From assembly GCA_944324425.1 (NCBI GenBank), contig CALUWE010000006.1:39071-103070 (forward strand): DNA of 64,000 bases, read 5' to 3'. The position numbers and the translations under genes are program-made. Below the pieces are notes generated by a model. That model worked only from the letters and a program-made list of their open reading frames with translations, searched no databases and was not told the DNA's origin. Below, in pieces: positions 44,986 to 53,732 of this stretch (position 1 is the first letter of the stretch; each line of letters starts with the position of its first letter). The stretch is from Candidatus Gastranaerophilales bacterium (lineage in GTDB: Bacteria; Cyanobacteriota; Vampirovibrionia; Gastranaerophilales; Gastranaerophilaceae).

Positions 44986-46338
44986 ATGAGCATTAACAAT
45001 GTTTCTAATGTATCAGATGCACTAAAGTACGTAAGCGGAATGGAAGTTTCGGAAACGGAAAGAAGTATTGTATCAGATGTTAAAGATTCTATTTTCAACC
45101 CGATAACTCTTGCCTTCGGTGCACTGGAAGTTAACTCGTCTTTAAAAAGCAACTTGGATGCAAAAAGCATAAAAGATGTTTTTGAAAAGATAAAAACCGT
45201 AGGCGAAGTTGAAAAAGGCAGCAAAATAGGAACAGCCATAAGAAGCACAAATATCGGCGAACAGTGGACAAACACCGTAAGCAACGTAATAAAAAAAGCA
45301 GACGACAAAATTGCAGAAAAAGCAGCAAAAGCCGCAGCTAAAAGCACGGCAAGCGAAGTTGCGGAAACCGCACTTACCACAACAACAAAAGAAGCTGCGG
45401 AAGGTGCTTCAAAAGGTATATTATCAACAATTAAATCAGGCTTCAGCAAAGTCGGAAGCGCAATATCAAGCGTTGTAAGCAAAATCCCCGGGGTAAGCAA
45501 ACTTAAAGAAGGCTTATCTTGGTTGAGCAAAACTAAAGTCGGCAAAATTGCAAAAGGTACAGGTGCTGTCGGTATGATGGCATTTGAAGGAATTATCGGT
45601 CTTGTAACCGAAGTAATTCCTGCATTTGCACAAGGCGGTTTTGACTCAGGTATGAAACAACTCGGTAAAACCGCAATTAAAACCGCATCAACAGGTATAG
45701 GTTGGGCGGCAGGTACAATGGGCGCAACAGCATTGGGTGCAGCAATCGGTTCAATATTCCCGGGTGTCGGCACGGTTATCGGCGGTGCAATCGGTACATT
45801 TATCGGCGGCATGTTGGGTTCAACCGTATGTAACGGCATTACAAGCAAAATTGTAGGAAAATCTGAAGTTGAAATCCTTCAAGATGAACAATTTGAAGAA
45901 GCAGCAAGCCAAGTGGCAAATGATACAAACGCAATGAATGAATTAAACCAAATGGTTGCAGCACAAGTTCAAGCAGACATTGCAAACGGCACTGTTGATG
46001 AAGACACGGAAAAAATGGCGGCACTTTTAAATTCCGGCGCTTTCACAACAACATCTGCCGCAACTAATCCTTATACGGTAACAAACCTCCAAACAACAAC
46101 ACCTGCAACAAATACAACAACGACAACAACAACTCAAACCAATACAAGTCCCGCAAATTCATCATATTGGACAGAAATGGCCAAAAAGGCAGCAAGCGGC
46201 GACACCAGCATATATAATATTTCGGATGAAAAACTTGATTCGGTATTTTCAAACCCCAATACCAACGGAATCTCAACCGATACATCCTTAAGCAAAGAAG
46301 CAACGAACGAAAACGTTAACTACTTCGCTGTCGGTTAA
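44986..46338 (+). CDS. hypothetical protein: amphipathic K/A/S/T-rich region, glycine-zipper hydrophobic core, Thr-rich tail
   Basis: GWAAGTMGATALGAAIGSIFPGVGTVIGGAIGTFIGGMLGS forms a GxxxG ladder, and the tail reads TTTPATNTTTTTTTQTNT. No signal peptide recognised. Confidence 0.7.
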   Translation: MSINNVSNVSDALKYVSGMEVSETERSIVSDVKDSIFNPITLAFGALEVNSSLKSNLDAKSIKDVFEKIKTVGEVEKGSKIGTAIRSTNIGEQWTNTVSNVIKKADDKIAEKAAKAAAKSTASEVAETALTTTTKEAAEGASKGILSTIKSGFSKVGSAISSVVSKIPGVSKLKEGLSWLSKTKVGKIAKGTGAVGMMAFEGIIGLVTEVIPAFAQGGFDSGMKQLGKTAIKTASTGIGWAAGTMGATALGAAIGSIFPGVGTVIGGAIGTFIGGMLGSTVCNGITSKIVGKSEVEILQDEQFEEAASQVANDTNAMNELNQMVAAQVQADIANGTVDEDTEKMAALLNSGAFTTTSAATNPYTVTNLQTTTPATNTTTTTTTQTNTSPANSSYWTEMAKKAASGDTSIYNISDEKLDSVFSNPNTNGISTDTSLSKEATNENVNYFAVG

Positions 46339-46361: not shown

Positions 46362-46394
46362 AAAATAAAGCCTCTTATATAAGAGGCTTTTTTC
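46362..46394. terminator. bidirectional terminator
   Basis: aagcctctt-atat-aagaggctt followed by ttttt, with an A-run upstream. Confidence 0.85.
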
Positions 46395-46618
46395 TATTGC
46401 ATAATGCTTGACAAAGCAACAAGGTTCTCATAAGGAACTCCTGCTTCCGATAACTCCTCTGCCGATAAACCGAACAAGGTAATTAAACTTGATACGGTAT
46501 TTTGTTCTTTTATGATAGACCTTTTTATGATATCAGACACCTTTGATACGGCAGATTCTCTTGTCATATAAAGGTTTGAATTGGTCTTATGTAATATACG
46601 TTTTTTAGCCTTACCCAT
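46394..46618 (-). CDS. small hypothetical protein (74 aa)
   Basis: Intact ORF with a terminator directly downstream. No family recognised. Confidence 0.45.
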   Translation of the reverse strand: MGKAKKRILHKTNSNLYMTRESAVSKVSDIIKRSIIKEQNTVSSLITLFGLSAEELSEAGVPYENLVALSSIMQ

Positions 46619-46841: not shown

Positions 46842-47489
46842 ATGGAACTGAACTTACAAACTTCAAAAGTTTATGATAATCAACAACCTCAAAAAATTGA
46901 GGAAAAAAAGCCTGAAAAAAGAGTAAAAGAAAAAAAAGATATTTATAACGAAACACCGATAAGAAAATTGGGTTTCTTAGATGAAGTGGGAGAAGCCTTC
47001 AGGCCAATATTACAAACATCAAAAAACCCGATTGTAAGAGGGCTTCCAAATTATGCTTATATACCCTCAACCCTTTATATGGCAGCAGATGTTTATGATA
47101 AATACAAAAAAGGTTTAGACGGAACGGGCGAAAAACCAAGCGTTAAAATGGGTTTAAGACAAGCAGCTTATCAAGGTATTGTAAGTGTGGCAGCACCTAT
47201 TGCAATAATCAGAGGAACAAGCAAGGTTGCCCAAAAAATTGCAAGCAAACTGCCAAAACCCCCAAAAGAAGTAGGCGGCATCATTTCGAACGCTATGAAC
47301 GGCCTTAAAAACAATAAATATACAAAAAATATTATGACAAAAGCGGGAATGCCGGGGAAAATTATAGGTGCCATAGCTTCAATTTTTGTCTTATCAAAAT
47401 TATCAAAGCCTGTTGATAAAATTGTTTCAACCGTTTTTGAAAAAACAATTGACCCGATGATTGGCGTGAATAAAAATGAAAATAAATAA
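46842..47489 (+). CDS. membrane protein resembling the MTP18/MTFP1 (mitochondrial fission process protein 1) family
   Basis: IRKLGFLDEVGEAFRP, LYMAADVYDKYKKG and AYQGIVSVAAPIAIIRG are co-linear with the MTFP1 motifs RYLGYANEVGEAFRS, YVLADAIDKGKKAG and VWQALASVAIPGFTINR as I recall them. Confidence 0.55.
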   Translation: MELNLQTSKVYDNQQPQKIEEKKPEKRVKEKKDIYNETPIRKLGFLDEVGEAFRPILQTSKNPIVRGLPNYAYIPSTLYMAADVYDKYKKGLDGTGEKPSVKMGLRQAAYQGIVSVAAPIAIIRGTSKVAQKIASKLPKPPKEVGGIISNAMNGLKNNKYTKNIMTKAGMPGKIIGAIASIFVLSKLSKPVDKIVSTVFEKTIDPMIGVNKNENK

Positions 47490-50780: not shown

Positions 50781-53732
50781 ATGAATAAGGTAGCAAAAAC
50801 ACTGCCTTTAATTATTTCTTTCGGCTGTTTTAACGTATTGCCGGCCGTTGCCGAAATAAACAAGGCATACAATCTTATTGAAGCGGAAAACAAAACGGAT
50901 GACACAATTACAAAGTACACCTACAATTGGGAAACAAACACTTTTGACCCAAAATATTACAATTTGGAGATAAATCCGACAGAATACGGGAATATTAATT
51001 CGTATGATGACATAAAATATTATACTTATGATTCATATGGCAAAATCACGGAAGGTAATAAAGAAAATGCTGTTTTTAAATATTATGTTGACAGCACGAG
51101 GCTTGCAGACTCTCAAATATATATAGATGAAAACAGCCTTATAAAAAATATTGATAAAGATTTCACAGGCTTTACAACAACTGCAATAGATTTTAGTAGC
51201 TTATATTTAGACAGCCTTGACAGTGTAACCGGAAATTTTTACAACAACACAACAACAAACGGCGAAGCAATCCTGAGCGACAGAGGCAGAATTACAAGCA
51301 TTTCAGGCAATTTTATAAACAATAGAAATAACTCAGGCTCAGGCGGCGCCCTGAAAGCATACGGTGCAGATTATATTGAAGGAACCTTTATTGGCAACAG
51401 TGCTTATCTGAGCGGGGGCGCTATATATGCAAATAATGCTTTTTTAAATACAATTGAAGCAAACTTTATTTCAAATAAAGCAGGTTACAATGGCGGTGCC
51501 ATATACAAAAAAGCGAATATGACAAGCATAAAAGGTGATTTCATAGGTAACTCCGCAGCGGTTTCGGGCGGGGCAATTTACAACATACCCTATGGAACCA
51601 GTCTCGAAAGGCTCGAGGGAGATTTCATAAAAAATACAGCGGGGACTTCAGGCGGAGCAATTTACAGTTCAGACCAAATACACAACATAAAAGGTGATTT
51701 TATAAGCAATTCTGCTGACGGCATAATGGACACAAAAGGCGGAGCTGTTTATCAAGCAGAAAATTCGGGCTATGGAATGTATTTTGTAAATTCATCATTC
51801 ATTGAAAACTATGCAAAAAGCTTAAATGGCGAAGCAAAAGGCGGCGCTATATATGCCCATGGCAAAGTAAATATTACTGCTCAAGATGGTCATACTTCAT
51901 TAATTAAAGGAAACTACACGGAATCAGGCGGCATAAAAGATGATAATGCAATATATATGGCTTTTGGCAAAAATATGGAATTACAAGATACAACATATTC
52001 AAACGATGGCAATACACAATATGCTACTTATGCTGCCGAACATCCAAGCTTAAATCTAAATGCTATTGACGGCGGCAATATTGTCATTGAAGATAAAATC
52101 AATGGCAACAAAGGCGGCGATATCATCACAATAACTTATGAATATGAAAACGGTAAATGGGTGGAAAAATCACAAACAAGCGTGAAAGACACGGGGTACA
52201 GTATTAACGTAAACGGCGATAAAACAGGTGCTGTTGTTTTTAACAACAGAGTTGATGGCGGTGCCGATATGAAATTGAGTGATACAAATCTTGTTTTAGG
52301 CAAAAACGATACCGTTTTATCAGGAAACGACATGACATTTACTTCCGGCAACTTTGTTATGACAAATAATTCCGTCGGAAATACAAATTTTAACAATTTC
52401 ACATTAACCGGAACTACAACAACATCAGCCGATGTTGACCTTTATAATGCCAAAATGGACAGAATTACCGCACAAAATTACAACATTATGGGTGATAGTT
52501 TTCTTGAAGTAAACGGATTAAACCTGCTAAATGATGCCAAAGAAGATAAAACGGTTATTTTATATGCTGACAAAGAGCTTGCAAACAATGTAAAATACAC
52601 AGGCGCAAACCCTGTTGCATATTCTCCTTTGTGGAAATATGACGTATCATATGCAACCCATGACGACGATTTGGGCTATTTTACATTTTCAAGAGGCTCA
52701 GACACAAACAACTATGAAAACTTTAACCCAAGCGCCCTTCCTGCAGTAATTTCAACAAACGCAGGCGGCTATACAACACAAATGCAAGTGTTTGAATATG
52801 CATTTAAACATTCAGACGCCTTTATGGCACTTCCTGCATTTGAAAGAATGGCAGTCATAAACGGCGACAAATATGCTTTGGCAAATTCCTCAGATACAAC
52901 CGATGTAGGGTATTTTTCACCCCTTATGACACAATATGACACAAGAGGAATTTGGTTAAAACCGTATTCTTCATTTGAAAATATTCCTTTAAAAAACGGC
53001 CCTAAAGTTTCTAACATAAGTTACGGTACTTTAGTTGGTTATGATACAAACTTAAAGCGTTTCAGAAACGGTTTTTCGGGCGTATTGACCGGATATTTGG
53101 GGTATAACGGCGCAAGCCAAAGATATTCAGGCATTGACACATATCAAAATGGCGGCCTTGTTGGCTTAACCGGTACTTTATATAAAGGTAACTTCTTCAA
53201 CGCAACAACAATATCGGCAGGCGCAACGGTCGGTTCATCAGACACAATGTATGGTCATGAAGATTACACAATGTTTATGTCCGGTATCGGTAACAAATTC
53301 GGTTATGACTTTGAATTTAAAGACGGCAAATTTATTTTCCAGCCTTCATTATTCTTAGCATATACATTTGTTAACACCTTTGACTATACAAACGCAGCAG
53401 GTTTAAAAATAGAGTCAGACCCATTGCATGCCATTCAAATTGCACCCGGTGTTAAATTCTTTATGAATACAAAAAACGGCTGGCAGCCTTATTTAAGAGC
53501 AGATATGGTTTGGAATCTGCTTGATAAAAATAAAGTAACCGCAGGTGATGTAAGACTTCCTGAAATGAGCATAAAGCCTTATGTTCAATATGGTGTCGGC
53601 GTTCAAAAAACATTCAAAAATGATACATTAACTTTCTTTGGCCAAACATTAATTCAAAATGGCGGCAGAAACGGCGTTTCACTGAATGCAGGCTTAAGAT
53701 GGGCAATCGGTAAAATAAAAAACAGAAGCTAA
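50781..53732 (+). CDS. Pmp-repeat (polymorphic outer membrane protein-type) autotransporter
   Basis: Signal peptide MNKVAKTLPLIISFGCFNVLPAVA. Seven consecutive FxxN...GGA(I/L/V) pairs between about nt 51231 and 51861. The C-terminal ~280 aa are rich in alternating aromatic beta-strand patterns, ending ...GVSLNAGLRW-AIGKIKNRS. Confidence 0.8.
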   Translation: MNKVAKTLPLIISFGCFNVLPAVAEINKAYNLIEAENKTDDTITKYTYNWETNTFDPKYYNLEINPTEYGNINSYDDIKYYTYDSYGKITEGNKENAVFKYYVDSTRLADSQIYIDENSLIKNIDKDFTGFTTTAIDFSSLYLDSLDSVTGNFYNNTTTNGEAILSDRGRITSISGNFINNRNNSGSGGALKAYGADYIEGTFIGNSAYLSGGAIYANNAFLNTIEANFISNKAGYNGGAIYKKANMTSIKGDFIGNSAAVSGGAIYNIPYGTSLERLEGDFIKNTAGTSGGAIYSSDQIHNIKGDFISNSADGIMDTKGGAVYQAENSGYGMYFVNSSFIENYAKSLNGEAKGGAIYAHGKVNITAQDGHTSLIKGNYTESGGIKDDNAIYMAFGKNMELQDTTYSNDGNTQYATYAAEHPSLNLNAIDGGNIVIEDKINGNKGGDIITITYEYENGKWVEKSQTSVKDTGYSINVNGDKTGAVVFNNRVDGGADMKLSDTNLVLGKNDTVLSGNDMTFTSGNFVMTNNSVGNTNFNNFTLTGTTTTSADVDLYNAKMDRITAQNYNIMGDSFLEVNGLNLLNDAKEDKTVILYADKELANNVKYTGANPVAYSPLWKYDVSYATHDDDLGYFTFSRGSDTNNYENFNPSALPAVISTNAGGYTTQMQVFEYAFKHSDAFMALPAFERMAVINGDKYALANSSDTTDVGYFSPLMTQYDTRGIWLKPYSSFENIPLKNGPKVSNISYGTLVGYDTNLKRFRNGFSGVLTGYLGYNGASQRYSGIDTYQNGGLVGLTGTLYKGNFFNATTISAGATVGSSDTMYGHEDYTMFMSGIGNKFGYDFEFKDGKFIFQPSLFLAYTFVNTFDYTNAAGLKIESDPLHAIQIAPGVKFFMNTKNGWQPYLRADMVWNLLDKNKVTAGDVRLPEMSIKPYVQYGVGVQKTFKNDTLTFFGQTLIQNGGRNGVSLNAGLRWAIGKIKNRS

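What the first reader, a model, noticed from the sequence alone, without database searches (positions are those of the whole stretch)
46842..47489. Bacterial protein co-linear with eukaryotic MTP18/MTFP1 (mitochondrial fission process protein 1) motifs
Three ordered blocks match the human MTFP1 sequence as I remember it. They are IRKLGFLDEVGEAFRP vs VRYLGYANEVGEAFRS, STLYMAADVYDKYKKG vs SSYVLADAIDKGKKAG, and AAYQGIVSVAAPIAIIRG vs FVWQALASVAIPGFTINR. The spacing is similar and hydrophobic helices follow. As far as I know the family is annotated essentially as a eukaryotic inner-membrane protein. A genuine bacterial homologue would matter for the origin of the family and would mark an uncharacterised bacterial membrane protein class. 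It carries a bacterial-specific lysine-rich N-terminal extension.
Basis: partly seen in the sequence, partly recalled or inferred. Interest (0 to 1): 0.6.

Follow-up and report, generated by a model that had tools for sequence, protein, structure and literature searches.

The report
Bacterial relative of mitochondrial MTFP1
A gut bacterium from the non-photosynthetic cyanobacteria (Gastranaerophilales) carries a real but divergent relative of MTFP1/MTP18, a mitochondrial inner-membrane protein, and among bacteria the family was found only in this one class, so its origin and basic function can now be tested.

Summary

**Homology is real.**
- Pfam MTP18 scores just below its cut-off (22.1 against 25 bits, E 1.7e-4).
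- phmmer with this protein alone reaches named animal MTFP1.
- Profile-profile comparison gives 99.5-100% probability over almost the whole length.
- An AlphaFold model (pLDDT 80.8) matches giant-virus MTP18 models best.

**The gene is resident.** It has native GC content, a single copy and conserved bacterial neighbours.

**Distribution.** Relatives occur across the class Vampirovibrionia. Other families carry eukaryote-like forms that pass Pfam's cut-off. Gastranaerophilaceae carry a derived, duplicated subfamily, and this protein is a short form of it. No match was found in the rest of the phylum sample or in 14 control genomes.

**Origin.** Trees give three groupings: eukaryotes plus giant viruses (a supported clan), the Gastranaerophilaceae type (a supported clan), and several separate groups from other Vampirovibrionia families. 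They cannot be rooted, so the direction of transfer is open.

**Function (inferred).** A basic, all-helical protein held in the cell membrane by two short proline-containing hydrophobic helices.

I found no publication describing bacterial MTFP1 relatives.

The parts
46842..47489 (+). CDS of 215 aa plus stop: a divergent bacterial MTP18/MTFP1-family protein, the short form of the Gastranaerophilaceae subfamily
   Evidence: ORF. M1 is invariant across 17 close homologues. PF10558 E 1.7e-4. hhalign 99.5-100%. AF2 pLDDT 80.8. Foldseek matches viral MTP18.
46842..46955 (+). Residues 1-38: poorly conserved, charged (Lys/Glu-rich) N-terminal tail, predicted disordered
   Evidence: pLDDT 51-56 over residues 1-30. 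Variable in alignment A1. 9 K/R and 8 D/E.
46956..47012 (+). Residues 39-57: helix 1, carrying the family's hallmark motif RxLG[YF]x[ND]ExGEAxRP (R41, F45, D47, E48, A52)
   Evidence: These positions are conserved in the Gastranaerophilaceae type, other Vampirovibrionia, eukaryotes and giant viruses. This is the stretch matched by Pfam.
47028..47111 (+). Residues 63-90: helix 2 with Y79 and D83 (shared by the whole family) and the DKYKKG box typical of the Gastranaerophilaceae type
47160..47213 (+). Residues 107-124: hydrophobic segment A, [FWY]Q..AS...P, with the near-invariant P119
   Evidence: Hydropathy peak conserved in all groups. Conservation. Part of the long helix 101-136.
47214..47348 (+). 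Residues 125-169: strongly basic linker (9 K/R, 1 D/E). Long-form paralogues in related genomes carry an extra insert of about 100-200 residues here.
   Evidence: The long-form model splits across this point when searched against the own genome. Long-form lengths of 300-430 aa.
47349..47417 (+). Residues 170-192: hydrophobic segment B followed by the KP[VI]D motif (P190, D192), shared with eukaryotic IPFIIKPID
46394..46618 (-). Conserved neighbour: a 74-aa protein of unknown function, 80-100% identical in relatives. No evidence of a functional link.
   Evidence: Synteny in L002-L010. No Pfam family.
44986..46338 (+). Conserved neighbour: a 450-aa protein with a Gly/Ala-rich hydrophobic stretch and a Thr-rich tail, and no known family. 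No evidence of a functional link.

Best explanation
The ORF encodes a genuine, divergent member of the MTP18/MTFP1 superfamily and is a resident gene of a Gastranaerophilaceae bacterium (class Vampirovibrionia, the non-photosynthetic cyanobacteria).

Shown:
- Homology extends over nearly the whole length.
- The all-helical predicted fold is shared.
- The gene is conserved, with intact reading frames, in well over a hundred related genomes.
- The family is spread across the class.

Inferred: like MTFP1 in the mitochondrial inner membrane, the protein sits in the bacterium's own cytoplasmic membrane. It is held there by two short, proline-containing hydrophobic helices (residues 107-124 and 170-186). 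The conserved amphipathic N-terminal helices and the basic linker lie at the cytoplasmic face. There it acts as a small structural factor that organises or remodels membrane, for example by partitioning into membrane subdomains or acting during division. It has no enzymatic features.

The eukaryotic partners DRP1/FIS1, OPA1 and MISO are eukaryote-specific proteins. Any shared activity must therefore be the membrane-intrinsic one.
For: Homology:
- PF10558 is the top Pfam hit, E 1.7e-4.
- 43 of 89 bacterial relatives hit PF10558, best E 1.5e-9.
- phmmer over 1.84 billion representatives reaches Lingula and Xenopsylla MTFP1, Ancoracysta and Creolimax.
- hhalign gives 99.5% and 100%.
- Seventeen positions of the window protein meet my conservation filter in both bacterial groups and the eukaryotes (top residue at least 60% in each group, no more than two different residues).

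Fold:
- The AF2 model has pLDDT 80.8 and pTM 0.66 and is all-helical.
- The best structural matches are Tupanvirus, Terrestrivirus and Yasminevirus MTP18, probability 1.0, TM 0.51-0.60.

Resident gene:
- GC is 34.6% against 33.1% for the window.
- It lies among RNase III, a histidine kinase, rpsL and rpsG.
- Synteny holds in relatives down to 45% identity.
- The genome has one copy.

Class-wide family:
- 164 of 401 genomes in the class sample have a match, including families f46, f49, f50 and f51.
- 9 of 19 tested genomes from other Vampirovibrionia families pass Pfam's cut-off over profile positions 20-170.

Membrane association: two hydrophobic segments are conserved in position in bacteria and eukaryotes. 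MTFP1 is an inner-membrane protein enriched in prohibitin-marked subdomains (bioRxiv 10.1101/2025.01.05.631328; PMC7050145).
Against: - The window protein itself scores below Pfam's gathering threshold.
- The hydrophobic segments are short and only moderately hydrophobic (Kyte-Doolittle peaks 1.4-1.7).
- The linker between them is strongly basic (+8 net). That does not fit a plain two-pass topology with a cytoplasmic N-terminus, so topology is unresolved.
- Gene neighbourhood gives no functional clue: contexts differ between subfamilies.
- The function of eukaryotic MTFP1 is itself only partly understood.
Confidence: 0.65

Rival explanations
1. Origin rival A. A eukaryote, or a giant virus carrying the gene, donated MTP18 to an early member of Vampirovibrionia. 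The gene then duplicated and diverged quickly. On this reading the bacterial family is a domesticated eukaryotic gene.
For: MTP18 is pan-eukaryotic: animals, Creolimax, Ancoracysta and MMETSP protists and Andalucia (PMC7050145). Among the bacteria I could test, it was found in one class only. Giant viruses carry it and took it up at least twice, so the gene moves between lineages. Members of the class live with eukaryotes, as gut residents or as the alga-killing Vampirovibrio (my own knowledge and scan note e1-1445668).
Against: The eukaryotes plus viruses form one supported clan (99/95) with no bacterial sequence inside it. Mean pairwise identity is lower on the bacterial side (22-30%) than on the eukaryotic side (37%). 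Paralogue groups are shared between bacterial families.
Confidence: 0.5
2. Origin rival B. The family arose in Vampirovibrionia or their ancestors, and the eukaryotic stem lineage acquired it before the last eukaryotic common ancestor. MTFP1 would then be a mitochondrial inner-membrane protein that did not come from alphaproteobacteria.
For: The family is present in at least six family-level groups of the class, with deep paralogy and up to 4 copies per genome. In the unrooted tree the eukaryotic clan attaches among bacterial groups. A 95/82 branch places it with the Gastranaerophilaceae type and one f49 group, apart from 11 other bacterial rows. The midpoint root falls among bacterial sequences in both careful trees.
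Against: Midpoint rooting is unreliable with branches this long. The alignment is short (186-193 columns). No outgroup exists. No match was found in the roughly 260 genomes of the phylum sample that lie outside the window's own family.
Confidence: 0.35
3. Function rival. The protein is exported and acts on the mitochondria or other membranes of a host or prey cell, by mimicking MTFP1.
For: It resembles a eukaryotic organelle protein, and its class includes a predator of algae (scan note e1-4649519). The family has expanded into variable paralogues.
Against: The N-terminus is hydrophilic and has no signal-peptide-like stretch. The gene sits among housekeeping genes, not next to secretion genes, in the window. 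It is conserved in gut fermenters as well. The tail carries as many acidic as basic residues, unlike a mitochondrial presequence.
Confidence: 0.1
4. The similarity is due to chance or composition, or the gene is eukaryotic contamination in the assembly.
For: The Pfam score is below the cut-off and covers only 60 residues.
Against: Profile-profile E 4e-44 over 154 columns. The fold matches. Synteny with bacterial genes holds in many independent assemblies. GC content is native.
Confidence: 0.02

Closest known systems
Eukaryotic MTFP1 / MTP18 (Pfam PF10558), an inner mitochondrial membrane protein, e.g. Lingula anatina XP_013379647.1
   Same: The four blocks come in the same order: RxLGYxNExGEAFRP, Y...AD..DK, [WF]Q..AS...P and the hydrophobic helix followed by KPID. 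The core is a similar size. Two hydrophobic segments sit at matching positions. The predicted fold is all-helical.
   Different: Identity is only 23-29%. The window protein has a charged 38-residue tail and a DKYKKGxDGTGEKPS box, and the linker between its hydrophobic helices is longer and basic. It has no mitochondrion to reside in, and the known eukaryotic partners are eukaryote-specific. It scores below Pfam's cut-off.
Eukaryote-like MTP18 proteins of other Vampirovibrionia families (e.g. L035, 239 aa; P0104 on contig L030)
   Same: They belong to the same bacterial class and the same superfamily, and lie in ordinary chromosomal contexts.
   Different: They keep the eukaryotic-style DxYRDTxxRYLGY start. 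They score 1e-41 to 1e-10 against my eukaryotic profile and pass Pfam's cut-off. Their tails are Pro/Tyr/Gln-rich rather than Lys-rich.
Long-form paralogues in Gastranaerophilaceae (300-430 aa, e.g. P0066; a partial member of its cluster is named from Candidatus Spyradomonas excrementavium)
   Same: They fall in the same 100/100-supported clan and share the DKYK box and C-terminal KPID helix.
   Different: They carry a charged insert of about 100-200 residues between the two hydrophobic helices. They occur at 1-4 copies per genome. The window genome has only the short form.
Giant-virus MTP18 (Tupanvirus, Terrestrivirus, Yasminevirus; IMG/VR giant-virus contigs)
   Same: These are the best structural matches to the model.
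   Different: They nest inside the eukaryotic clan as two separate acquisitions, not with the bacteria.

Membership tests
MTP18 / MTFP1 (Pfam PF10558) | Score at or above Pfam's gathering cut-off (25 bits) for the whole protein | tested here: not met
   22.1 bits, E 1.7e-4, residues 40-99 only. Relatives do meet it: precomputed PF10558 on five close homologues and 9 of 19 genomes from other Vampirovibrionia families over the cut-off.
MTP18 / MTFP1 (Pfam PF10558) | Full-length colinear homology to bona fide eukaryotic members | tested here: met
   hhalign of the bacterial profiles against 22 eukaryote-like proteins, all of which hit PF10558: 99.5%, E 1.6e-22 and 100%, E 4.1e-44 over 154 columns.
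MTP18 / MTFP1 (Pfam PF10558) | Family signature residues (R, Y/F, N/D-E, A in helix 1; Y and D in helix 2; aromatic-Q..AS...P; P.D after the last hydrophobic helix) | tested here: met
   Seventeen positions of the window protein meet my conservation filter in both bacterial groups and the eukaryotes. The window has R41, F45, D47, E48, A52, Y79, D83, Y110, Q111, S115, P119, P190 and D192.
MTP18 / MTFP1 (Pfam PF10558) | The same three-dimensional fold | tested here: met
   Model of pLDDT 80.8. Foldseek probability 1.0 and TM 0.51-0.60 to giant-virus MTP18 models. No solved structure of the fold exists in the PDB copy. This compares predicted models with predicted models.
MTP18 / MTFP1 (Pfam PF10558) | Integral membrane protein of an energy-transducing inner membrane | tested here: inconclusive
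   Two conserved but short and only moderately hydrophobic segments. The charge distribution does not fit a simple two-pass topology. Needs fractionation.
MTP18 / MTFP1 (Pfam PF10558) | Role in membrane fission or fusion control | not testable with these tools
   No genetic or cell-biological data. The gene neighbourhood is uninformative.

The most novel reading that the evidence does not exclude
MTFP1 is not a eukaryotic invention. It descends from an old membrane-protein family of Vampirovibrionia-like bacteria and entered the eukaryotic stem before the last common ancestor. That would make it a mitochondrial inner-membrane dynamics factor of non-alphaproteobacterial bacterial origin. Its ancestral, partner-independent activity could then be studied in bacteria.
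Probability: 0.3. Interest if true: 0.8.

Novelty: new variant of a known kind. Interest (0 to 1): 0.6.

Why it matters
MTFP1 controls mitochondrial fission and fusion, inner-membrane integrity and mtDNA turnover, but its molecular activity is unknown and it is treated as a eukaryotic protein. A diverse bacterial family offers three things:
- A comparative set that shows which residues are truly essential. Seventeen positions of the window protein are conserved in both bacterial groups and the eukaryotes.
- A setting free of the eukaryote-specific partners DRP1, OPA1 and MISO, in which to ask what the protein does to a membrane on its own.
- A concrete test case for non-alphaproteobacterial contributions to the mitochondrial proteome, or alternatively for an ancient eukaryote-to-bacterium transfer into the sister lineage of the photosynthetic cyanobacteria.

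It also gives a name to a widespread "hypothetical protein" in gut Gastranaerophilales.

Tried and rejected
- NCBIfam gave no family.
- The search for related loci with the broad alignment A2 failed because no stretch was conserved enough. A1 worked but only reached close relatives.
- P0088 (5494 aa, six matched stretches) is a low-complexity YTYTYT repeat protein and a false positive.
- AF2 with the shallow 17-sequence alignment gave an unusable model, pLDDT 53. It became usable only with the 50-sequence alignment.
- The PDB fold search gave nothing at E <= 0.001.
- Searches with P0104 and with alignment A4 returned few proteins and no organism names.
- At first P0104 looked like a second bacterial lineage. 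Its contig's DnaN is 78% identical to that of a Vampirovibrionia genome (G460), so it belongs to the same class.
- Gene context showed no conserved operon beyond ordinary synteny among close relatives.
- I checked for possible partner families in the own genome. A Band_7/SPFH protein is present and the Dynamin_N matches are only weak. Both families are near-universal in the controls, so this is uninformative.
- Promoter and terminator scans around the gene were at chance level, apart from a hairpin after the upstream gene.
- Literature searches found no paper on bacterial MTFP1/MTP18 homologues.

Full report
**1. The observation**

The window has an ATG-started ORF at 46842..47489 on the + strand, 215 aa.

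I did not fetch human MTFP1. Instead I used a named animal MTFP1, Lingula anatina XP_013379647.1 (P0110). BLASTP of the window protein against it gives 29% identity over 148 residues, pairwise E 8e-17, with the blocks in the same order.

A fourth shared block lies at the C-terminus: a hydrophobic helix followed by KP[VI]D.

**2. Is the similarity more than chance?**

Pfam MTP18 (PF10558) is the best hit at E 1.7e-4. Its 22.1 bits are under the curated 25-bit cut-off, and it covers only residues 40-99. NCBIfam has nothing. Three stronger tests agree that the homology is real.

- **Single-sequence search.** phmmer of this protein against 1.84 billion representative proteins gave 121 hits at E <= 1e-3. 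The weaker ones are bona fide eukaryotic MTFP1: Lingula, the flea Xenopsylla, Ancoracysta and Creolimax. All 22 that I aligned hit PF10558.
- **Profile-profile comparison.** Seventeen close bacterial homologues against those 22 proteins give 99.5% probability, E 1.6e-22, over 153 columns. A broader 50-sequence bacterial profile gives 100%, E 4.1e-44.
- **Fold.** An AlphaFold2 model built on the 50-sequence alignment (pLDDT 80.8, pTM 0.66, all-helical) finds its best structural matches in giant-virus proteins. Those with a name in the table are annotated Mitochondrial 18 kDa protein or MTFP1, with probability 1.0 and TM 0.51-0.60 for the top two. The PDB holds no similar solved structure.

Seventeen positions of the window protein meet my conservation filter in both bacterial groups and the eukaryotes: the top residue reaches at least 60% in each group, with no more than two different residues. 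They include R41, E48, Y79, D83, Q111, S115, P119, P190 and D192.

**3. Is it a bacterial gene?**

Yes.
- Its GC content is 34.6% against 33.1% for the window.
- Nearby genes are a mini-RNase III, a histidine kinase, a response regulator with a GGDEF domain, rpsL, rpsG and glycosyltransferases.
- The order hyp450 (+), hyp74 (-), MTP18-like (+) is kept in nine independent assemblies, down to 45% identity of the protein. Eight of them are labelled Gastranaerophilales or Galligastranaerophilus. The ninth, L008, carries the label 'uncultured Gammaproteobacteria'.
- The genome (1.84 Mb, 98% complete) has one copy.

**4. How far does the family reach?**

- **Phylum sample.** With a profile of 89 bacterial relatives, 118 of 401 genomes matched, and all of them belong to the window's own family.
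- **Class sample.** 164 of 401 genomes matched, now including families f46, f47, f49, f50, f51 and f44.
- **Other families of the class.** Their proteins look eukaryote-like. For example, L035 has KDFYRDTGARYLGYANDIGEAFRS ... IPLIVKPVD. They score 1e-41 to 1e-10 against my eukaryotic profile. In 9 of 19 such genomes they pass Pfam's own cut-off over profile positions 20-170.
- **P0104.** This eukaryote-like copy sits on an unassigned bacterial contig whose DnaN is 78% identical to that of a genome of this class.
- **Negatives.** PF10558 and the bacterial profile found nothing in the roughly 260 genomes of the phylum sample outside the window's own family, and PF10558 found nothing in 14 control genomes.

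I could not search other phyla genome by genome. The only evidence there is the single-sequence scan of the representative library. In that scan, every bacterial-looking hit I inspected had the Gastranaerophilaceae signature or fell with the class.

Within Gastranaerophilaceae most genomes carry 1-4 long-form paralogues of 300-430 aa. These have a charged insert between the two hydrophobic helices. The window genus has only a 215-aa short form.

**5. Phylogeny and origin**

Two careful maximum-likelihood trees (LG+C20, 186-193 columns) give the same picture.
- One clan holds the eukaryotes plus giant viruses (98/96 and 99/95). The viruses nest inside it twice.
- One clan holds the Gastranaerophilaceae type (100/99 and 100/100). 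It contains the window protein.
- Several separate groups come from the other Vampirovibrionia families, and single genomes contribute to more than one group.

No bacterial sequence lies inside the eukaryotic clan. A 95/82 branch groups the eukaryotes with the Gastranaerophilaceae type and one f49 group, apart from 11 other bacterial rows. The tree has no outgroup, so it cannot say who gave the gene to whom.

- **For eukaryote or virus to bacterium:** the pan-eukaryotic distribution (PMC7050145), the restriction to a single class among the bacteria tested, and the mobility shown by giant viruses.
- **For bacterium to eukaryote:** the class-wide spread with deep paralogy, the lower mean identity among bacteria (22-30% against 37%), and midpoint roots that fall among bacteria.

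I put these at about 0.5 and 0.35.

**6. What it probably does**

Shown:
- The protein is all-helical (helices about 39-57, 63-90, 101-136, 142-167 and 171-207).
- It is basic (37 K/R against 20 D/E).
- It has two moderately hydrophobic segments, 107-124 and 170-186. An invariant proline lies within the first and just after the second. Their positions are conserved from bacteria to animals.

Inferred: it is a membrane protein of the bacterium's own cytoplasmic membrane, as MTFP1 is of the mitochondrial inner membrane. MTFP1 concentrates in prohibitin-marked subdomains and acts in fusion restraint and peripheral fission (bioRxiv 10.1101/2025.01.05.631328).

The eukaryotic partners are eukaryote-specific, so any shared activity should be intrinsic to the protein in the membrane, such as subdomain formation, curvature or remodelling.

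The topology is open. The linker between the hydrophobic segments is net +8. By the positive-inside rule it should face the cytoplasm. That fits either re-entrant helices or an unusual orientation with the N-terminus outside.

The neighbourhood gives no operon clue. An exported effector role is possible but unsupported.

**7. Known or new?**

Full-text searches found no paper on bacterial MTFP1/MTP18 relatives. Precomputed Pfam hits on some relatives show that databases already tag them implicitly.

Earlier notes of this scan report the same family in Vampirovibrio genomes. I treated these as leads. Their claims of class restriction and of giant-virus copies agree with my own results.

I rate this a new variant of a known kind: a sub-threshold, derived bacterial subfamily of MTP18.

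Noticed in passing
window 46394-46618 (-): A 74-aa ORF with no Pfam family is far better conserved than its neighbours: 80-100% identity in relatives whose MTP18-like protein is only 45-86% identical. It has a basic N-terminus and may be a small regulator or nucleic-acid binder.
   Followed up: partly
window 44986-46338 (+): A 450-aa protein with no known family. It has a Gly/Ala-rich hydrophobic stretch resembling a glycine zipper and a Thr-rich C-terminal tail. It lies upstream of the MTP18-like gene in all nine close relatives checked (L002-L010).
   Followed up: partly
window 46367-46390: A perfect 10-bp hairpin (AAAGCCTCTT ATAT AAGAGGCTTT) flanked by T-runs on both strands. It looks like a bidirectional terminator between the 450-aa gene and the 74-aa gene.
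   Followed up: no
window 50781-53732 (+): A 983-aa protein with a weak match to the Chlamydia polymorphic membrane protein repeat. It may be a large surface or autotransporter-like protein.
   Followed up: no
IMG/VR loci L066-L145: Ninety-nine viral contigs, several with giant-virus (GVMAG) names, encode eukaryote-type MTP18. In the tree they form two separate groups inside the eukaryotic clan. One of them sits next to two unnamed eukaryote-like environmental proteins (P0082, P0109).
   Followed up: partly
L045 1336-2064 and 2167-2832 (-), genome G487: Two MTP18-family genes lie in tandem in a genome of another Vampirovibrionia family, and the same genome has a third copy elsewhere.
   Followed up: no
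L032 (genome G430, family f46): A genome assigned to a different family carries a Gastranaerophilaceae-type copy that sits next to P0035 on very short branches. This suggests transfer within the class or a binning or taxonomy problem.
   Followed up: no
The genome search rows for G054, G057, G066, G209, G297, G367, G395, G018: Several long-form paralogues contain one or two in-frame TAA or TAG stops inside otherwise strong matches. They may be recent pseudogenes in a family that gains and loses copies.
   Followed up: no
L008: The record is labelled 'uncultured Gammaproteobacteria bacterium', yet it keeps the window's gene order and 48-92% identical proteins. The label is probably wrong and the genome is a Gastranaerophilales member.
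   Followed up: partly
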